From IMG/VR virus record IMGVR_UViG_3300045988_151382: a DNA stretch of 48,925 nt. One strand, given 5' to 3'. The DNA is from a virus. Its lineage: Duplodnaviria; Heunggongvirae; Uroviricota; Caudoviricetes. Under the pieces are notes generated by a model. It did not search any database. It worked only from the letters and a program-made list of their open reading frames with translations, and was not told the origin of the DNA. Position 1 is the stretch's first letter. Every line of letters starts with the position of its first letter. Position numbers and translations under genes: made by a program. Below, piece by piece: positions 42,147 to 48,925 of the stretch.

Positions 42147-42446
42147 TCAGATGTTAAACGCTATTCGTTTTCCTGTGGGAAGCTCAACATCCAGGCTTAA
42201 TTTGCCTCCCATAGCTTCAACGTAACGCTTTAATGTCGCCAGCTTTAAATCATTTCCGCGCTGCTCCAGCTTTGTTACTGCTGGCTGGCTTATACCCATC
42301 GCCTCAGCAACCTGCTTTTGTGATAACTGGAGTTCTTCACGCATCATCTGCAAGCCGACCTCAAGAATCATCTCATCTGCCATTTCTTTAATTCGCGCCT
42401 GGCTTTCCGGTGAACGGCTGGCAATCACCTCATCTAATGTTCTCAT
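42147..42446 (-). CDS. HigA-like XRE-family antitoxin
   Basis: 99 aa; HTH LSQKQVAEAMGISQPAVTKLE; directly downstream of toxin-like gene with ATG/stop overlap. Confidence 0.6.
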   Translation of the reverse strand: MRTLDEVIASRSPESQARIKEMADEMILEVGLQMMREELQLSQKQVAEAMGISQPAVTKLEQRGNDLKLATLKRYVEAMGGKLSLDVELPTGKRIAFNI

Positions 42447-42799
42447 TACTTGCTCTCCAGTGTGTTCAGATGTGCTGCAAACTCATCCTCAGCTATACGC
42501 ACCAGTTTTTTATAAAACCGCTTATCGTTACTTTTGTCTCCTGCACAAAGAACGATAGCCCGGCGAATCGGATCGAACGCATAAAAGGCTCTTATCGGAC
42601 GGCCAGAAAACTGAACGCGAAGCTCTTTCATATTTTTGTACCGAGAACCTTTTACGGTATCGGCATATGGCCTGGGTAACTCAGGTCCGTAAACCTGTAG
42701 CTTTTTCAAATCAGCCAAAACCTTTTCCTGAAGAGCGTCTTCTTGCTCATTTAGCCAGTCGTCAAATCGCTGGCTAAAAAGTACCGTCCACATGCTCAA
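42446..42799 (-). CDS. HigB-like (RelE-fold) toxin
   Basis: 117 aa; toxin-first arrangement characteristic of HigBA modules. Confidence 0.5.
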   Translation of the reverse strand: MSMWTVLFSQRFDDWLNEQEDALQEKVLADLKKLQVYGPELPRPYADTVKGSRYKNMKELRVQFSGRPIRAFYAFDPIRRAIVLCAGDKSNDKRFYKKLVRIAEDEFAAHLNTLESK

Positions 42800-43037
42800 T
42801 CCTATAACCTGTAGTTTATATCACTAACTATATAACCTGTGGGTTATAATTTCAAGAAAAACGGGGCCATTTAACATAATGGACGTTATCGGCACCACCG
42901 GATCACCGTTCATTGTCGGATCTAAAAAATCCGCTCAAAAGATCATGTTTTCCTGGGCGTTTTCCACCGTTTTTTATGTTGCTTATTTGTTAATGAAATC
43001 TCGTTTTCAGTTTCGCCTCATTTTCGACACGAAAGCC

Positions 43038-43328
43038 CTATTTTTGTGACTTTACTCCTGGCATATGGACTTCCCAGCGACGAATCCCCATAGCTGCGCA
43101 AAAATCAGCCACATAATTCAATCCCGCCCATTCGCGGATACCACCACGGGCTTTTTCAATGAAAACGGCAATCCCTTTTTTATTGAGAGCAAAAAGCCGC
43201 CAGCTTTTTGTCACTTCGTCCTGGGTAGCCACAACACAAGTGAAAGCTCCCATGCGATACAGGTCCAAGAACTCTTTGCGTGTTTTGCGTACAAGTTCCA
43301 TAACAAGCCTCATATTTGCATGTTTCAA
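43038..43328 (-). CDS. Hypothetical protein
   Basis: 96 aa ORF, coupled to upstream gene. Confidence 0.35.
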   Translation of the reverse strand: MKHANMRLVMELVRKTRKEFLDLYRMGAFTCVVATQDEVTKSWRLFALNKKGIAVFIEKARGGIREWAGLNYVADFCAAMGIRRWEVHMPGVKSQK

Positions 43329-43624
43329 ACATCTGTTTTGTTATCAATGAAGATTAACCCTAACCCAGCGAAGTAACACAGCAGCGCCCAGGCTGCATAC
43401 GGAATGCTGGATCTGGATGTGGACTCCTTTAACATCTGCCAGTTGCGAACATTGCGACTATCTTTTAAGCCTAGTTTTTTGGCCAACTGCGAGCCGCTCA
43501 TTCCGGTCAGGCCAATGACTGCCCGAACTTCTCCACATGTAGGAGATTCCCATTCATCCGCTTTTTTTAAACAAGCCGGATTCAACATTTTTAAAACAGT
43601 ATCTTTATCCATAACCATCTCCAT
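43325..43624 (-). CDS. Putative HTH protein with C-terminal transmembrane helix
   Basis: 99 aa; HTH-like GMSGSQLAKKLG and hydrophobic AAWALLCYFAGLGLIF. Confidence 0.4.
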   Translation of the reverse strand: MEMVMDKDTVLKMLNPACLKKADEWESPTCGEVRAVIGLTGMSGSQLAKKLGLKDSRNVRNWQMLKESTSRSSIPYAAWALLCYFAGLGLIFIDNKTDV

Positions 43625-43979
43625 TTATTATATCTACGATGGTAGGAAATCTTTTCCTATGTGGCAATAGAAATTTACTACATTGCGTATAAGACAAGTT
43701 TTCTATGTCTAATAGAAAATGATGTTTCTTACGTTTTGTCGCGTTCTGATTGCTACTGTGTGCGTATTTATCGACGTTTATTGATAAGGTCCGTCCCTTC
43801 CTCCTGCAAAGCCCGGCCGTAGGCCTTATTTCGGCCTTATATAAATTGATTTTGTATAGTTCGAAACGTGCCGTTTCGAAAAGGATGATCAGGCTGCTCC
43901 ATGCCTCCGGCAAGTGCCGGAGGAGGTATATTTGAGCGTAGCGACTCGAACCGGCGCGAGCTTTAGCTCGCTGCAAGGG

Positions 43980-44255
43980 CGAACATATTCACAGGCAAAG
44001 CCTGCGTAAGTTAAATAAAGAAAGTCTTAATAAAAGAAAGTGATTTTGCATTTATTTGTTTAGTGCATCTATTATAAAAAACCATTTGCATATACATATC
44101 AAAACTGTGGATAACTTTATTAGCCGATGCCTGTAAAGGCGATATTTTTGCTGTGTCCAGGTTTAGAGAAAATTAATTTAGACTATTTTTTGAACAGATA
44201 TTTTATTGCGACGTAGATAATCCTCCGGTAAAACCGGATTCATCATTCAGGTGGG
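43980..44255. other. Candidate plasmid replication origin region with consensus DnaA box
   Basis: AT-rich region immediately downstream of repA; TGTGGATAA (reverse complement TTATCCACA) at about 44106..44114. Confidence 0.5.
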
Positions 44256-45104
44256 TTAATGTTGGAGTGATTTCCAGGTCTTTCTTAGCCTGTTATAACG
44301 CTGCTCAACGAGGGATCGTAAATATGCAAGGTCAGCACCTGGATACATGCCATCAGCAAATTCCTGGCTAACCTCTCTAGTGATTTGATGACGAAGTTCG
44401 GCCTCTCCCTTTTCCCGGACAAGACGCGCAGCTCTCTCCGCTGCTTTCTGTTTTGCCTTTATCTCTCTGGCCGTCTTCCTCTGGCGCCATACATTCTCCA
44501 TCTGCTCCTGAATAACAATACGCTTATAATCAGCCTCCGTTATCGCTTTTTTAAGCCGTTCGCTATTCTTCGCATTGAAGTAATTAAGTTTCTGGCTAAC
44601 CGCACGTCTCCATGCTTGTTCAGTAATACCAACGGTTTCCAGCAGTTGATCACGAATCTCTATTTTCGCTGGCCAATACTGTTTATTCACCCGATCCCAG
44701 CGACGTTCATAATCAATAAAACCTAACGCTTTCAGTTGCGACAACGCCCTTGTACAGCGCGTTATAGACTTGTTCCCAGCTTCGGATACGGTAGACAGGC
44801 CGCAAAAATCAGCCAACGCCTCAGCACTAGCCAGAACCCGCTTAGAAATGATGTTTACATGGTGCAAAATCGCAGCGATCACAGCATTAATCGCCCGACG
44901 ACGATGCTCGTTTATCCGGCGCTTCCGCCCTGACGGTTGATTAACGTAGAACGCAACCTCACACGTAAGATCACGACCATTAATGCGCTGTAAAGCATCA
45001 GATAACACCAGCGGCAGCTTGTGCGTATGGTGCTTTGGAGGCTGGAACTCCGGCGACAAATTACAAACGTAAGCGGAACGTAGAGACGGCATTGGTCTAT
45101 CCAT
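44256..45104 (-). CDS. repA: Replication initiator RepA, IncFII RepA1-like
   Basis: Segment CGLSTVSEAGNKSITRCTRALSQLKALGFIDYE resembles recalled IncFII RepA1 block; start uncertain (ORF open to 45236, internal ATG at 45104). Confidence 0.65.
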   Translation of the reverse strand: MDRPMPSLRSAYVCNLSPEFQPPKHHTHKLPLVLSDALQRINGRDLTCEVAFYVNQPSGRKRRINEHRRRAINAVIAAILHHVNIISKRVLASAEALADFCGLSTVSEAGNKSITRCTRALSQLKALGFIDYERRWDRVNKQYWPAKIEIRDQLLETVGITEQAWRRAVSQKLNYFNAKNSERLKKAITEADYKRIVIQEQMENVWRQRKTAREIKAKQKAAERAARLVREKGEAELRHQITREVSQEFADGMYPGADLAYLRSLVEQRYNRLRKTWKSLQH

Positions 45105-45136
45105 ATGTTCGCTCTTGCGTCCACGGAAAACCAACG

Positions 45137-45229
45137 TATAATGGGAGTTGTCGAGGCGCCCATGGATTGTTGTTGTTGGTTTTCCGTGGATGTCGCAAGA
45201 AGCCCGCAGATTTATCTGCGGGCTTTTTG
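45137..45229 (+). ncRNA. CopA-like antisense RNA candidate opposite the repA leader
   Basis: TTGCGT-N16-TATAAT promoter, 15-bp inverted repeat CCACGGAAAACCAAC/GTTGGTTTTCCGTGG, then terminator GCCCGCAGA-TTTA-TCTGCGGGC-TTTTT. Confidence 0.5.
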
Positions 45230-45702
45230 TTTCCATATCTGGTCAGTTTCCAACCAGACACCCACAATCATAACCACGTTACGTGGTTTTAAGAGAACTC
45301 TACCACAACACTTTCGGTCATGCACGAAGTCTCTCACTGATCGAACGATAATCCACCAGTAAAAGGATCTAAATTGGATCTCGTTTTGCGAGCATCATAC
45401 TACTGGCCTAACTCCAGTCAATGATTCCCAGCCAGAAACCTGCGGTAAACTCATCGTTCAGCAATATGCTGTCCGGCTTCAAAGATAAGGTGACATCATC
45501 CCTTAACAGCGCGGCCAGTTCAGTTAAAGGGCTGTTCTGATTTAATGCTGGCCACTCATACCTGGTAATAAGTGGTCAGTCTTAACACTCACCATTTGAT
45601 TGCACCCGTGTTGACGATTTGTTACTGGATATCAGACACGCTGGATAGCCAGTAGAAACATACCATTAAAATTATTACAATAATTGGTCACATGATTATC
45701 TT

Positions 45703-46266
45703 ATGCTGAATAATAAAGATATGAATATTAATGAACTTAAAGACTGTATTCACTATGAAGTAATCGGTAGCGAGCGTCCTTTCTCCTGGCGAAAGGCAAT
45801 TGTTCGCGCAATAAAACATAGAAGGGTTCGTTATTTATTTTGGTGGCGCATAGCCAAATACCTTTTTGATAAAGGCGGATACTGTCGGAAGATTGCGGGA
45901 AAAATAGAACGTTTCATTCTTGATAAATATAATGTAACAGTCCCTTTAACTGTAAATATAGGGAAAGGCTTTGATATTTCTTATCTCAACAGTGTTGTTA
46001 TCGGTCACAAAGTAACAATCGGTGAAAATTGTTCAATTAAGCCCGGAGTAACTATTGGACTTCGCGGGGAATTTAATGATATGGATATTGTTATAGGGCA
46101 TAATGTGACCATTGGTTGTAATGCCACCATTCTTGGTGGCAAAGTGCGTATAGGAAACAATGTCACAATAGGTGCTCATGCATTGGTATTGCATGATATT
46201 CCTGATGATTCAACATTCATCACTAAATTTCAGTCTGAAGTTATCTGCTCGTCCTCCCGAACATAA
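45703..46266 (+). CDS. Hexapeptide-repeat (left-handed beta-helix) acyltransferase
   Basis: 187 aa; tandem hexapeptide repeats [21 protein letters not shown]...[34 protein letters not shown]; AT-rich codon usage. Confidence 0.7.
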
Positions 46267-46847
46267 CCCTGATTCATCAGCTCTGGCCATACGATATCCG
46301 GAGCTGTACTGGTGTCAATTCTACTCACTAATACTCTGTATTTTCTCCAGGAATCCAGTTGTGAATTTTCCTCGTTTGTTGCTATTTCAAGATTAACTGC
46401 ATCCTGCAGAATTGCGATGTTATCTGTTGCTTCCTGGATCAACCTTGCCTTTTTCTCTTCCGCTTCCCGTATCCGAAACAGTTTTTCTGCTTCCTCATCA
46501 TTCACCCAGGATACGCCGTCCCACTTCTGATACTCCCCTGCTGGCGACAACCAGGTGACATTCTCTGGTAGCGGTCCGAGTTCAGAAATAAACAATGCGT
46601 CCCCCGACGCCACGTCATAGACCGTTTTACCACGATGGTCTTCAACAATATTCCACGATTCATTTTCACTGTTAAAAACTGCCACAAAGCCAGCAGGAAT
46701 TTCCGGTGGGGCGATATCTGTAGAATTAGCTGGCAGCCCTGTATGAGGTGGAATATATGCGTCACCTTCACCAATAAACTCATTAGTTCCGGCCAGCAGG
46801 TTATAAATTTTTACGGTACGTGATTGTTCACTCATTCTGAATGCCAT
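46230..46847 (-). CDS. Tail fiber assembly protein (Tfa)
   Basis: 205 aa; C-terminal [15 protein letters not shown]...WPE motif matches recalled Tfa consensus; immediately downstream of tail fiber gene. Confidence 0.8.
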
Positions 46848-48836
46848 TATGCAAGCCTCACAATATAATTAAATGCGATGTTTTTAACGGTGTTTTCCGC
46901 GTTACCAGCAGCGTTAACGGTGATGGTGTGTCCATGTGAACCAATCTTAACAGAGTGCGTATGAGCGCCAATACCAACAGTGTGTGCATGTGCCCCAGCA
47001 CTTGTAGCGGTACCTGATACTGAGTGGGTATGTGCGCCAGAAGAAGGCACAGTTCCATTCCCCACCACCGTGCCACTTGATGAACCATCCAGCCAGTCGA
47101 AATTCATACCGCCACTGTTTGGTCTCCTTAATGGAACGGTATGAGTATGTGCGCCAGCACTATTTGCAGTACCAGATACATTGTGGGTATGTGCACCTGT
47201 GTTATTCGTTGATTTAGTACCGTAATCAAACGACGATGTGGTTTTCGTACCCAAATCCGTACTGGATGCGCTGGCACTGTGGGTGTGCGATTTAATGCCA
47301 TCCTGTTCCTGAGACAATACGGCCCGACCACTGGCGGGTTTGCCCTTGATTGTCCAGCCGCGCATATCTGGAATAACACCAGAAGGATAGGCAATAGCCA
47401 GTTTCGGATATGCTGCCTTATCAAACGTCTGCCCCTGCATGATTGCATAACCTGCAGGTGGCGTATCTGATGGCCACGGCAGCGGAACACCTGGCGGAAA
47501 CGCTTCAATATTTGCCGAGCCGTCAAATTTTACGCCGTTAATTGTCCTTGCCGTTTTCAGCTTTGTTGCTGTAGCAGCATTGCCGGATAGTTCGCCTGAA
47601 AGACCACCGCTGAATGTCTGTTTCGCCATCCATGTCTGAGCTTCGTCGATAATTGGCACACGTCTTGTCGTGATCGTGCGGCTTCCCGGATTTCCTGAAA
47701 TGCGAACCATAAAAAAGCGGTAGTTGGCTTTACTTACAGTGCTGCGCCATACATGCATTGAGCGTCCCGAACCAGAATCATCACTCGGACCGACTGAGAT
47801 GTTTATCAGGTTGCCATCAATGACGCCCCAGTCCATACCGTCGGGAATATTGGTCATGTTATCAAGCCGAACGGTTATCAGACTGCCCGGCACAAAATCG
47901 TAGGTCTGCCAGTCCAGGCTGGTGAGCTTTGCCACAGCACCGCCGATACCCAGATTCAGGGGAAGTGAATACGAGGTGTAGACTTCCCGCCATTCGCTCC
48001 ATGAGCTGCCGGTAAAGACGCGCTCAAAGGTGCGGCCTTTAAGGGTTGTACCTGTTCCGGCAGTTGTATAACGCTGCCATACATTAACACCATCAAACCG
48101 CCTCAACACTTCCAGAATGCCGAGTACAGTCACGCCGTTTCCGTCCAGTACTGGACCGTTGGTCGCTTTACCTGTAACGCTGTAAATACCTGGTGAGGTT
48201 ACATCATTCAAATCACCTTCGTAATAACGACTCTCTGACTGATGACCGACTCTTAACCACGGTTCCCACTGCGGATTTGATGCATCCCAGCTTGCCGCAA
48301 GACAGCGGACATACATATTTCCACGGCGAGTGGTATAACGTTGCGTTCTTCCATAATTTCCGCCTTCGAGGATCTCAAGCATCCCCTGAGCAAAGCCGCC
48401 TTCCTCTGGATAATTGCGTTCATATGAAGCTATAGCTGAGCTACTGTTACGCCATAAACCAAGATGCTCAGCGGCTCCAAGCGTATTCAGGTCTATAGTC
48501 GTACTCAAAGGGCGGGTAGCAGATTGAGTGTGACGCCATACGCCCCACGGACCATCAGTGCCATTCCACTTATTGGCGAGTTTACGCATGTATACATTGC
48601 CGTCTCTCGTGGTAAAGCGTTGCGTACCTGCAAAATGGCCGGCAGCAAAAACCTCAAGCACACCGACAGCATTATCTTCCGGGAAATTTTTCTCCAGTGT
48701 TGCGTTGGTGGATGTTGCTTTAGACCAGATACCTGAATAAGCCTTAACAGGACCAAACGTATTCAGATCAGCATCAAGCGGCATTTCGCCATTGTTTTTC
48801 ATAAACGTCAGGCTGGTAACGCCAACATTGTCCAGA
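46847..48836 (-). CDS. Tail fiber protein, C-terminal portion (continuation of 1..836 across the circular junction)
   Basis: ORF track 46847..48802 is the internal-Met part; frame stays open upstream through 48836 and joins position 1; C-terminus has repeated GAHTH(N/S/T)V His-rich motifs. Confidence 0.75.
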
Positions 48837-48925
48837 AAAGCTGATTTATCCTGGATATCTGCACCGTTCTGATTTTTCGCCAGACGTGAATTTGCGTTGT
48901 CATTTGCTGCCTTGACCGCTTTTGG
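48837..48925. repeat. Terminal overlap: exact copy of window positions 1..89
   Basis: 89 identical bases at both window ends, coding frame preserved across the join. Confidence 0.85.

What the first reader, a model, noticed from the sequence alone, without database searches (positions are those of the whole stretch)
45703..46266. Hexapeptide-repeat acetyltransferase inserted convergently beside the tail-fiber assembly gene
A plus-strand acyltransferase with clear left-handed beta-helix hexapeptide repeats overlaps the 3-prime end of the minus-strand tfa gene by about 37 bp and has AT-rich codon usage unlike its neighbours. Cargo genes at this position often modify the cell-surface receptor (for example O-antigen acetylation) to block superinfection or change serotype.
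Basis: partly seen in the sequence, partly recalled or inferred. Interest (0 to 1): 0.5.

Follow-up and report, generated by a model that had tools for sequence, protein, structure and literature searches.

The report
Tail-fibre-linked acetyltransferase-like phage cargo gene
A small, AT-rich gene for a beta-helix acetyltransferase-like protein sits tail-to-tail against the tail-fibre assembly gene of an E. coli phage-plasmid; it moves between unrelated phages with the fibre tip, is wrongly labelled "serine acetyltransferase", and lacks the usual catalytic histidine, so what it does is untested.

Summary
A + strand ORF (45703-46266; the likely true start is 45721, giving 181 aa) encodes a confidently predicted left-handed beta-helix protein. 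It overlaps the convergent tfa gene by exactly 37 bp and is AT-richer than its neighbours (GC 0.38 against 0.46-0.50).

New findings:
1. It belongs to a roughly 2-kb host-range cassette made of the fibre tip, Tfa and this gene (window 45450 to about 47485). The cassette is shared at 92-94% nucleotide identity with P1-like plasmids and P2-like prophages. Sister phages carry other cassettes at the same site.
2. In 5426 complete E. coli genomes, this Tfa C-terminal type is never found without the gene.
3. Relatives only 36-53% identical occupy the same convergent position beside tfa in three other phage lineages.
4. A promoter-like site is conserved upstream, and homology between elements begins at its -35 element.
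5. It is not a serine acetyltransferase. None of six aligned CysE active-site residues is kept. The catalytic His is Tyr and its partner Asp is Thr in this clade only, yet dN/dS is 0.04-0.10.

The receptor-modification or exclusion reading is plausible by linkage and analogy (NeuO), but it is unproven. The altered active site leaves the chemistry open. I rate this moderately interesting: a new variant of a known kind.

The parts
45450..47485 (.). Mobile host-range cassette: P2-type intergenic leader, the acetyltransferase-like gene, tfa, and the last ~212 codons (tip) of the tail-fibre gene.
   Evidence: Left breakpoint: homology to the sister phage-plasmids (Yersinia phages vB_YpM_39/41/44) ends at 45449. 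Homology to P2-like prophage L003 starts at 45450, and to P1-like plasmid L002 at 45633. Right breakpoint: P2-like phage PhiR44_2, which lacks the gene, is 94.5% identical over fibre residues 1-439 and then diverges.
45653..45681 (+). Promoter-like site: -35 TAGAAA (45653-45658), 17-nt spacer, -10 TACAAT (45676-45681; TATAAT in other alleles).
   Evidence: Found by the consensus scan at 9/12. Both hexamers are conserved in all six aligned elements, and similarity to the most divergent allele group begins at the -35 hexamer. Function was not tested.
45721..46266 (+). Acetyltransferase-like CDS (181 aa from the preferred start; an upstream in-frame ATG at 45703 gives 187 aa). Residue numbers below use the 187-aa frame. 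Tyr94 is 45982-45984 and Thr79 is 45937-45939.
46230..46266 (.). 37-bp 3'-3' overlap of the two convergent genes. It encodes the last 12 codons of the acetyltransferase-like gene (its low-confidence tail) and the last codons of tfa.
   Evidence: The overlap is present in both E. coli allele groups but absent in yong2, phiNP and JL22. No intrinsic-terminator-like site lies between or just beyond the two genes.
46230..46847 (-). Tail fibre assembly gene tfa (205 aa).
   Evidence: Pfam Caudo_TAP E=1.1e-39. The 3' third (46267-46450) is found in E. coli genomes only when joined to the acetyltransferase-like gene.
46847..48925 (-). Tail-fibre gene. The longest ORF with a start inside the window is 46847..48802, but the gene as annotated in identical plasmids is 2847 nt and runs over the window end. 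The tip is of the T4 gp37 / lambda Stf type.
   Evidence: Pfam Collar and Phage_fiber. The annotation in pSCU-204-5 is 2847 nt. The tip is 61.5-79% identical to lambdoid Stf, T4-like distal fibres and the phiNP fibre.

Best explanation
The gene is a lysogenic-conversion ('moron') gene built into a ~2-kb exchangeable host-range cassette (fibre tip + Tfa + this gene).

Shown:
- It encodes a soluble protein with a short SAT-type helical N-domain and a left-handed beta-helix, in PHROG family 2154 (function unknown).
- It is under strong purifying selection.
- It has a conserved sigma-70-like promoter of its own and points against the late operon.
- It travels with one Tfa/fibre-tip type among P2-like prophages, P1-like plasmids and this IncFII-RepA phage-plasmid.

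Inferred:
- It is expressed in the lysogen and forms the usual LbH trimer.
- It uses acetyl-CoA (or another acyl-CoA) to modify a cytoplasmic precursor of an envelope glycan (LPS core/O-unit, colanic acid or a similar molecule). The modified surface no longer serves phages that use the cognate receptor. This would give superinfection exclusion and less loss of progeny on debris, analogous to NeuO in CUS-3.
- The canonical His/Asp dyad is replaced by an invariant Tyr plus a non-acidic residue. The transfer chemistry must therefore differ: for example, attack by an amine acceptor that needs no general base, or Tyr-assisted catalysis.
- The transcript has no terminator before tfa, so it probably also runs antisense into tfa.
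For: Fold and family:
- Hexapep E=1e-12.
- Model pLDDT 91.
- The SAT fold is the top match, TM about 0.7.
- phrog_2154 matches full-length at 7e-79.
- The best NCBIfam models include the polysaccharide-locus enzymes EpsC and WcaB, all below their cut-offs.

Selection:
- dN/dS is 0.04-0.10 over 22 alleles, with T79, Y94, H102 and D128 invariant.

Own promoter, with homology beginning at its -35 element.

Cassette behaviour and linkage:
- define the cassette and its breakpoints.
- In the 46 IMG/VR loci, nearly every copy with an intact 3' end is convergent with and overlaps tfa; L047 (no Tfa detected) and L041 (only a partial, divergent Tfa match) are the exceptions.
- 172 of 5426 E. coli genomes carry the joined pair, and this tfa 3' part is never found alone.

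Deep synteny:
- Homologues of 53%, 40% and 36% identity lie convergent beside tfa in Hafnia phage yong2, Citrobacter phage phiNP and P1-like JL22.
- phiNP and JL22 share the same fibre-tip and Tfa class.
- The phiNP and JL22 copies keep an acidic residue plus His, which argues that the ancestral activity was a normal acyl transfer.

Precedent:
- NeuO is a prophage LbH O-acetyltransferase that protects against K1 phage (PMC3046976, PMC13001214).
- Prophage acetyltransferases associate with Klebsiella K-types (PMC13123978).
Against: - No substrate or phenotype is known. The only paper found that mentions the homologue calls its role unknown (PMC9603915).
- The catalytic His is Tyr and the activating Asp is Thr. 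PMC3046976 states that all LbH enzymes crystallised up to 2011 share a catalytic His.
- Non-phage relatives are orphan genes, none in O-antigen or capsule loci.
- The hosts span many E. coli lineages with different O antigens, so a serotype-specific sugar target is unlikely.
- The fibre tip is of the gp37/Stf class. From my own knowledge, its classical receptor includes the protein OmpC, which a cytoplasmic sugar acetyltransferase would not mask.
- Many lambdoid phages with 73-79% identical tips lack the gene.
- IS1 has inactivated it in one E. coli lineage without loss of the prophage.
- Physical linkage could be mere hitch-hiking enforced by the 37-bp overlap.
Confidence: 0.42

Rival explanations
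1. It is hitch-hiking cargo whose target is unrelated to the receptor. The protein is an active acyltransferase acting on an intracellular small molecule, metabolite, xenobiotic or an invading phage component (a defence or fitness moron). It sits beside tfa only because the end of the late operon is a permissive slot, and because the 3' overlap welds it to the most frequently exchanged phage module.
For: - Relatives outside phages are stand-alone genes. One lies next to an MFS transporter and a HAD hydrolase, and others lie near a transposase, near a UDG-family gene, beside two further hexapeptide-repeat genes, or next to the integrase at a prophage end.
- Similar fibre tips are common without it.
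- The junction between convergent tail operons is where P2-type phages carry accessory genes such as Z/fun (my own knowledge; position shown).
- IS1 knock-outs persist.
Against: - PADLOC has no match.
- The same convergent position beside tfa recurs at 36-53% identity in four phage lineages, which is more than a single hitch-hiking event explains.
- The best family models are polysaccharide-locus enzymes.
Confidence: 0.25
2. It is a non-catalytic LbH protein (pseudoenzyme). After losing the His/Asp dyad, the clade kept the trimeric beta-helix as a binding scaffold. It might sequester a nucleotide-sugar or CoA, or bind a host or phage protein, and it acts without acyl transfer.
For: - His is replaced by Tyr and Asp by Thr/Lys/Val in exactly the eight members of this clade, while 82 of 93 family members keep His.
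- No alternative His is conserved across the clade: H102 is Leu or Arg, and D128 is Asn or His, in yong2, P0013 and P0014.
- Strong purifying selection shows the protein is used.
Against: - Tyr94 is itself invariant from 53 to 100% identity, which suggests an active-site role rather than an abandoned site.
- The E108-N109 motif and the coil glycines typical of active family members are retained.
- Some LbH N-acetyltransferases work without a catalytic base (my own knowledge: WlbB, QdtC).
Confidence: 0.15
3. It is a genuine serine O-acetyltransferase (the database label) that boosts cysteine synthesis in the lysogen.
For: RefSeq and GenBank name it 'serine acetyltransferase'. The closest solved structures are all CysE.
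Against: - Scores fall far below the curated cut-offs: cysE 71.5 against 210.65, EpsC 81.2 against 150.
- All six aligned NgSAT active-site residues differ: Asp147 to Thr, Asp161 to Ser, His162 to Tyr, Gly188 to Leu, Arg196 to Met, His197 to Asp (alignment; residue list from PMC8786284).
- There is no C-terminal CysK-binding tail. The protein ends ...SSSRT, encoded inside tfa.
Confidence: 0.02
4. It is a virion-assembly accessory: the protein modifies or helps fold the linked fibre or Tfa during lytic growth.
For: Strict linkage to one Tfa C-terminal type and fibre tip.
Against: - The orientation opposes the late operon, and the gene has a separate promoter-like site.
- Phages with closely related tips and Tfa assemble without it.
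- IS1-disrupted copies exist.
- No known Tfa system needs an acyltransferase (my own knowledge).
Confidence: 0.04

Closest known systems
NeuO, the polysialic acid O-acetyltransferase of E. coli K1 prophage CUS-3 (PMC3046976; PMC13001214)
   Same: Both are prophage-borne soluble LbH acyltransferase-family cargo. NeuO modifies the surface polymer used by phages and raises survival against K1 phage. From my own knowledge, neuO also lies next to the phage's receptor-binding (tailspike) gene.
   Different: - It belongs to a different LbH subfamily. The NeuD/NnaD model scores only 50.5 bits against a 160.8 cut-off.
- NeuO has catalytic His and Trp. This protein has Tyr at the SAT-type His position and Asp at the LacA/NeuO-type loop position.
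- NeuO has 5' heptanucleotide repeats for phase variation. No repeats are found here.
- The substrate here is unknown.
SAT-like polysaccharide acetyltransferases WcaB (colanic acid) and EpsC
   Same: These are the best-scoring curated families. They share the architecture of a short helical N-domain plus LbH, covering residues 30-173.
   Different: Scores are 62.4 bits (NF007564, cut-off 196) and 60.1 bits (TIGR04016, cut-off 194.65) for the two WcaB models, and 81.2 against 150 for EpsC. The gene is not in a polysaccharide locus, and the catalytic His is missing.
Serine O-acetyltransferase CysE
   Same: Closest solved fold (Foldseek E about 3e-8, TM about 0.7). There is homology from the last N-domain helices through the beta-helix.
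   Different: None of six aligned active-site residues is conserved. The N-domain is truncated and there is no regulatory or CysK-binding tail. Scores are far below the cut-offs.
'SacF'/'Sat' genes of P1-like phage JL22, Citrobacter phage phiNP and Hafnia phage yong2
   Same: They belong to the same protein family (36-53% identity) and occupy the same convergent position directly beside tfa. JL22 and phiNP also share the fibre-tip and Tfa class. The JL22 authors state that the role is unknown (PMC9603915).
   Different: JL22 and phiNP keep the acidic residue plus His. They do not overlap tfa. yong2 shares the Tyr variant but has a different fibre tip and a short Tfa.
Receptor-binding protein / exclusion-gene pairs such as T5 pb5-llp, and the P2 Z/fun accessory slot (my own knowledge, not tested here)
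   Same: An accessory gene expressed independently of the late genes sits next to the receptor-binding module and moves with it. In the P2-type prophages, its position is at the end of the fibre operon.
   Different: Llp is a lipoprotein that plugs FhuA, and Z/fun is unrelated in sequence. No exclusion phenotype has been shown for this gene.

Membership tests
Hexapeptide-repeat / left-handed beta-helix acyltransferase superfamily | Tandem [LIV]-G-x4 hexapeptide repeats detected by the Pfam model above its gathering score | tested here: met
   PF00132 47.5 bits against 27, E=1.1e-12.
Hexapeptide-repeat / left-handed beta-helix acyltransferase superfamily | Left-handed beta-helix fold | tested here: met
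   AF2 model pLDDT 91.2. All of the top 50 PDB matches are LbH enzymes.
Hexapeptide-repeat / left-handed beta-helix acyltransferase superfamily | Catalytic histidine at the inter-subunit active site | tested here: not met
   The SAT-type His aligns with Tyr94, and the loop His (SAT His193 / LacA-type) aligns with Asp128. In the family alignment, 82/93 have His and only this clade has Tyr.
Hexapeptide-repeat / left-handed beta-helix acyltransferase superfamily | Trimer that binds acyl-CoA between subunits | not testable with these tools
   Only a monomer model was available. No binding assay was possible.
Serine O-acetyltransferase (CysE; TIGR01172, NF041874, NF008349) | Score at or above the curated family cut-off | tested here: not met
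   71.5 against 210.65; 81.2 against 150; 44.7 against 397.
Serine O-acetyltransferase (CysE; TIGR01172, NF041874, NF008349) | Catalytic His158/Asp143 and serine-binding Asp157, Gly184, Arg192, His193 (E. coli numbering; NgSAT 162/147/161/188/196/197, PMC8786284) | tested here: not met
   They align to Tyr94, Thr79, Ser93, Leu120, Met127 and Asp128, so 0 of 6 are kept.
Serine O-acetyltransferase (CysE; TIGR01172, NF041874, NF008349) | C-terminal tail that regulates the enzyme and binds CysK (my own knowledge: it ends in Ile) | tested here: not met
   The protein ends ...EVICSSSRT (or ...IIYNSSHT). This tail is encoded in the overlap with tfa and has low model confidence.
Colanic acid acetyltransferase WcaB | Score above the curated cut-off and location in the wca cluster | tested here: not met
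   62.4 against 196 (NF007564) and 60.1 against 194.65 (TIGR04016). The gene lies in a phage tail-fibre cassette.
Prophage surface-polysaccharide O-acetyltransferase of the NeuO type | Carried by a temperate phage, outside the late operon | tested here: met
Prophage surface-polysaccharide O-acetyltransferase of the NeuO type | Catalytic His and Trp; 5' heptanucleotide repeats giving phase variation (PMC3046976) | tested here: not met
   No His at either catalytic position. No tandem repeats in 45400-46400.
Prophage surface-polysaccharide O-acetyltransferase of the NeuO type | Demonstrated acetylation of a surface glycan and a phage-resistance phenotype | not testable with these tools
   Needs LPS/capsule chemistry and adsorption assays.
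Moron (independently transcribed prophage cargo) | Own promoter | tested here: inconclusive
   A 9/12 sigma-70 match is conserved in all alleles, and homology starts at its -35 element. No transcript data are available.
Moron (independently transcribed prophage cargo) | Own terminator | tested here: not met
   No + strand terminator-like site between the stop codon and 46900. The gene ends inside tfa.
Moron (independently transcribed prophage cargo) | Composition unlike the flanks, and absent from otherwise near-identical genomes | tested here: met
   GC3 is 0.30 against 0.41-0.47 for the flanks. The gene is absent in vB_YpM_39/41/44 and in PhiR44_2.
PHROG 2154 (phage protein family, function unknown) | Full-length match to the profile | tested here: met
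   E=6.9e-79, residues 5-186 on profile positions 2-184 of 185.

The most novel reading that the evidence does not exclude
Host-range cassettes of enterobacterial temperate phages may carry their own 'cognate' surface-conversion gene, locked to the fibre tip and Tfa by a 3' overlap. Whichever phage acquires a new receptor specificity (P1-like, P2-like or phage-plasmid) would then simultaneously acquire the factor that neutralises that receptor in its lysogens. In this clade, the factor would be an LbH protein that has swapped the universal catalytic His/Asp for Tyr. That would mean either an acyl-transfer mechanism new to the family or a non-catalytic receptor- or precursor-binding role.
Probability: 0.2. 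Interest if true: 0.7.

Novelty: new variant of a known kind. Interest (0 to 1): 0.42.

Why it matters
- The gene is in about 3% of complete E. coli genomes (184 of 5426). These include ETEC, STEC O121 and clinical isolates from blood, urine and CSF, on three kinds of mobile element. It is propagated in databases under a wrong metabolic name.
- If it alters the cell surface, it changes phage susceptibility and possibly antigenicity wherever the cassette lands. That matters for phage therapy, serotyping and the spread of resistance-carrying P1-like phage-plasmids.
- A conserved Tyr in place of the family's catalytic His is a clean, testable enzymology question.
- The tight fibre-tip/Tfa/cargo linkage offers a general way to look for receptor-directed exclusion genes.

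Tried and rejected
- PADLOC scan: no defence-system match.
- Accession search in the literature for WP_001523082, WP_001418511 and WP_038428224: nothing. 'P2-like hotspot acetyltransferase anti-phage': nothing.
- The search for related loci on genome contigs with alignment A1 failed because there was no stretch conserved enough. It was not repeated.
- The afdb50 fold library was unavailable.
- BFVD viral fold search: no meaningful match, best TM 0.37.
- Tandem repeats as a NeuO-like phase-variation device: none.
- Rfam: only a sub-threshold IS009 hit inside tfa and chance-level hits in repA. No RNA family lies at the gene.
- H102 or D128 as a relocated catalytic base: rejected as a clade-wide solution, because yong2, P0013 and P0014 have Leu/Arg and Asn/His there.
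- The 187-aa start at 45703: disfavoured.
- Model coordinates could not be inspected, so the geometry around Tyr94 was not examined.

Full report
**1. What is in the sequence**

- It carries hexapeptide repeats (Pfam PF00132, 47.5 bits against a gathering score of 27, E=1.1e-12).
- An AlphaFold2 model built on 93 homologues is confident (mean pLDDT 91.2, pTM 0.85). It shows four N-terminal helices followed by a beta-helix. Only the first three residues fall below pLDDT 50; the first and last ten-residue blocks average 69 and 62.
- The gene is convergent with a Caudo_TAP tail-fibre assembly gene at 46230..46847 (E=1.1e-39). The two reading frames overlap by exactly 37 bp.
- GC is 0.377 and GC3 is 0.30. 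The flanks are tfa 0.456/0.413, the fibre gene 0.499/0.443 and repA 0.482/0.471. The gene is thus AT-richer than its neighbours. It lies only at the 12th percentile of equal-length windows of the whole element, so composition alone is weak evidence of foreign origin.

**2. Refinement of the gene model**

- An alignment of the upstream region from six elements shows that a second allele group (L039, L042) lacks the first ATG in frame.
- All alleles share ATG 45721, followed by N-I-N/S-E-L-K. More distant homologues start at the equivalent Met.
- RefSeq annotates the 546-nt form in P1-like and P2-like copies.
- The protein is therefore most likely 181 aa (45721..46266). I keep the 187-aa numbering for residues.
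- The same alignment shows a promoter-like site: TAGAAA, 17 nt, TACAAT/TATAAT at 45653-45681. It was also found by the consensus scan at 9/12.
- This site is conserved in every allele. Similarity to the most divergent group begins at the -35 hexamer.
- No terminator-like site follows the gene on the + strand. No tandem repeats are present.

**3. The element and the cassette**

- The window is a roughly 49-kb E. coli phage-plasmid. It has P2/Mu-type tail genes, an IncFII-type RepA (44256..45236; NF040977, 233 bits) and a RelE/ParE-type toxin-antitoxin pair.
- The 751 bases around the gene (45550-46300) are 100% identical in a dozen 47-49-kb non-mobilizable plasmids. Pieces of the window are 99.8-100% identical to phage vB_EcoM-613R2.
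- Sister phages isolated on Yersinia pestis (vB_YpM_39/41/44) are about 98-99% identical in the structural genes and through 43000-45449. From 45450 on, they carry a Hin-type invertase with other fibre/tfa genes instead.
- Homology to a P2-like prophage starts at that same point, 45450, and runs through the gene, tfa and the fibre at 92% nucleotide identity. Homology to a P1-like plasmid starts at 45633 at 94%.
- On the other side, P2-like phage PhiR44_2 has the same fibre shaft (94.5% over residues 1-439), then a different tip and a different GpG. It has no gene between GpU and GpG.
- The gene is therefore one of three components of a roughly 2-kb exchangeable cassette (about 45450-47485): fibre tip, Tfa and the acetyltransferase-like gene.

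**4. Linkage**

- The IMG/VR scan returned 46 loci with a relative. Nearly every copy with an intact 3' end lies convergent with and overlapping a Tfa homologue. The exceptions are L047 (no Tfa detected) and L041 (only a partial, divergent Tfa match). There are two allele groups: AT about 95-100% with Tfa 98-100%, and AT about 90% with Tfa about 83%.
- Among 5426 complete E. coli genomes, 184 carry the gene, with 158 places on chromosomes and 59 on plasmids.
- With a probe spanning the junction, 172 genomes have both parts joined. The remaining hits to the tfa side cover only the conserved 5' part of tfa, so this Tfa C-terminal type never occurs without the gene. The few copies without this tfa intact are a deletion remnant (L070) and one partial match (H134, 65% of the probe) that was not examined.
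- One lineage carries an IS1 insertion in the gene.
- The arrangement also recurs at deep divergence. Homologues of 53% (Hafnia phage yong2), 40% (Citrobacter phage phiNP) and 36% identity (P1-like JL22 'sacF') all lie convergent and immediately beside tfa, without overlap.
- phiNP and JL22 share the same fibre-tip class (64-68% over the last ~220 residues, ending ...[25 protein letters not shown]) and a full-length homologous Tfa at 53-78%. yong2 has another tip.
- The tip class is that of lambdoid Stf and T4-type distal fibres. Many lambdoid phages with 73-79% identical tips lack the gene.

**5. What the protein is and is not**

- Curated NCBIfam models rank EpsC (81.2 bits, cut-off 150), CysE (71.5 against 210.65) and WcaB (62.4 against 196) first. 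All are far below threshold.
- PHROGs places it full-length in phrog_2154, function unknown. PADLOC has nothing.
- The closest solved structures by sequence and by fold are all serine acetyltransferases.
- The HMMER alignment to N. gonorrhoeae CysE was read against the published active-site list Asp96, Asp147, Asp161, His162, Gly188, Arg196, His197 (PMC8786284). It gives Asp147 to Thr79, Asp161 to Ser93, His162 to Tyr94, Gly188 to Leu120, Arg196 to Met127 and His197 to Asp128. None of the six aligned residues is kept.
- The label 'serine acetyltransferase' is therefore wrong.
- In a 93-member family alignment, the catalytic position is His in 82, Asn in 3 and Tyr in exactly the 8 members of this clade.
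- The nearest out-groups (P0015, P0016, P0020/ESSI2_ev015, P0022, phiNP, JL22) have an acidic residue plus His. The Tyr clade (this gene, the second E. coli allele group, P0007-P0010, P0013, P0014, yong2) has Thr/Lys/Val plus Tyr.
- There is no gap between the nearly invariant I-G-K-G motif and this position, so the assignment is robust.
- No substitute His is conserved across the clade: H102 and D128 vary in yong2, P0013 and P0014.
- The gene is nonetheless under strong purifying selection. dN/dS is 0.04-0.10 in comparisons with dS up to 0.6, and T79, Y94, H102 and D128 are invariant in 22 distinct E. coli alleles.

**6. Context of non-phage relatives**

- P0020 lies at the outer edge of a prophage next to chromosomal genes, and next to the integrase in ESSI2_ev015.
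- P0015 sits beside two further hexapeptide-repeat genes on the same strand.
- P0016 lies beside an MFS transporter and a HAD hydrolase.
- P0014, P0009 and P0022 are orphan genes.
- None is in an O-antigen, capsule or colanic-acid cluster.

**7. Interpretation**

- Firmly shown: this is an independently oriented, selectively maintained cargo gene of the LbH family. It is welded to one fibre-tip/Tfa type and moves with it between P2-like, P1-like and IncFII-RepA phage-plasmid backbones.
- Inferred: it is expressed in lysogens from its own promoter and acts on the cell envelope to neutralise the cognate receptor.
- The inference rests on four things: the repeated association with the receptor-binding module; the resemblance to EPS/colanic-acid SAT-like enzymes; the NeuO precedent (PMC3046976; PMC13001214 shows protection against K1 phage); and the association of prophage acetyltransferases with Klebsiella K-types (PMC13123978).
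- Against it: the lack of any polysaccharide context; the wide host range across O-types; the possibility that the receptor is a protein; and above all the non-canonical active site.
- I put the envelope-modification/exclusion model at about 0.42, a receptor-unrelated enzymatic cargo at 0.25, a non-catalytic LbH scaffold at 0.15, a virion-assembly role at 0.04 and a true SAT at 0.02.
- The only paper found that discusses a member (JL22 sacF) treats it as a serine acetyltransferase of unknown purpose (PMC9603915).

**8. Novelty and verdict**

- The gene is already annotated in hundreds of records, so its existence is not new.
- As far as my limited searches show, four things are undescribed: the cassette structure; the strict Tfa linkage and 3' overlap; the recurrence of the arrangement in four phage lineages; and the clade-specific His-to-Tyr / Asp-to-Thr replacement under purifying selection.
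- It is best filed as a new variant of a known kind (prophage LbH acyltransferase cargo), of moderate interest, with clear experiments available to settle its function.

Noticed in passing
window 45449/45450; L071 7419-10277: Sister phage-plasmids isolated on Yersinia pestis (vB_YpM_39/41/44) are ~99% identical up to 45449. They then carry a Hin-type DNA invertase with alternative fibre/tfa genes (a Mu G-segment-like host-range switch) where this element has the acetyltransferase-tfa-tip cassette.
   Followed up: partly
window 46306-46504 (- strand): Sub-threshold Rfam match to IS009 (81.5 bits, gathering score 117, E=4e-18), lying inside the tfa coding sequence on its sense strand. It probably reflects homology to a tfa remnant of an E. 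coli K-12 cryptic prophage rather than an RNA gene.
   Followed up: no
window 45200-45225 (+ strand), inside the 5' end of repA (44256-45236, -): A strong hairpin (11 pairs, 7 G-C) followed by a T-run, antisense to the start of the IncFII-type repA. It looks like the terminator of a CopA-like copy-number control RNA. Weak Rfam hits (CsrC, Thr_leader) fall on the same hairpin.
   Followed up: no
window 46318-46291 (- strand): Promoter-like site with a perfect -35 (TTGACA, 16 nt, TATCGT; 10/12) inside the 3' part of tfa. It points antisense into the acetyltransferase-like gene. It could be chance or an antisense promoter.
   Followed up: no
L004 5172-6494 (E. coli L1_E925 and related chromosomes): An IS1 element splits the acetyltransferase-like gene in a set of related E. 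coli chromosomes. The gene is thus dispensable for maintaining that prophage.
   Followed up: partly
window 42147-42799 (- strand): RelE/ParE(HigB)-type toxin and HTH antitoxin pair next to the replication region, annotated as such in identical plasmids and in the Yersinia phages.
   Followed up: no
window 46847-48925 and 1-~770 (- strand): The tail-fibre gene runs over the window ends. The annotation in an identical plasmid is 2847 nt, and the first 138 bases of the window match P2-type gpH. The window therefore appears to be a complete circular element opened inside the fibre gene.
   Followed up: partly
L009 6001-7697 (Enterobacteriaceae bacterium BIT-l23 chromosome): A chromosomal relative (P0015, 49-51% identical, catalytic His intact) is followed on the same strand by two further genes with hexapeptide-repeat Pfam hits.
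   Followed up: no
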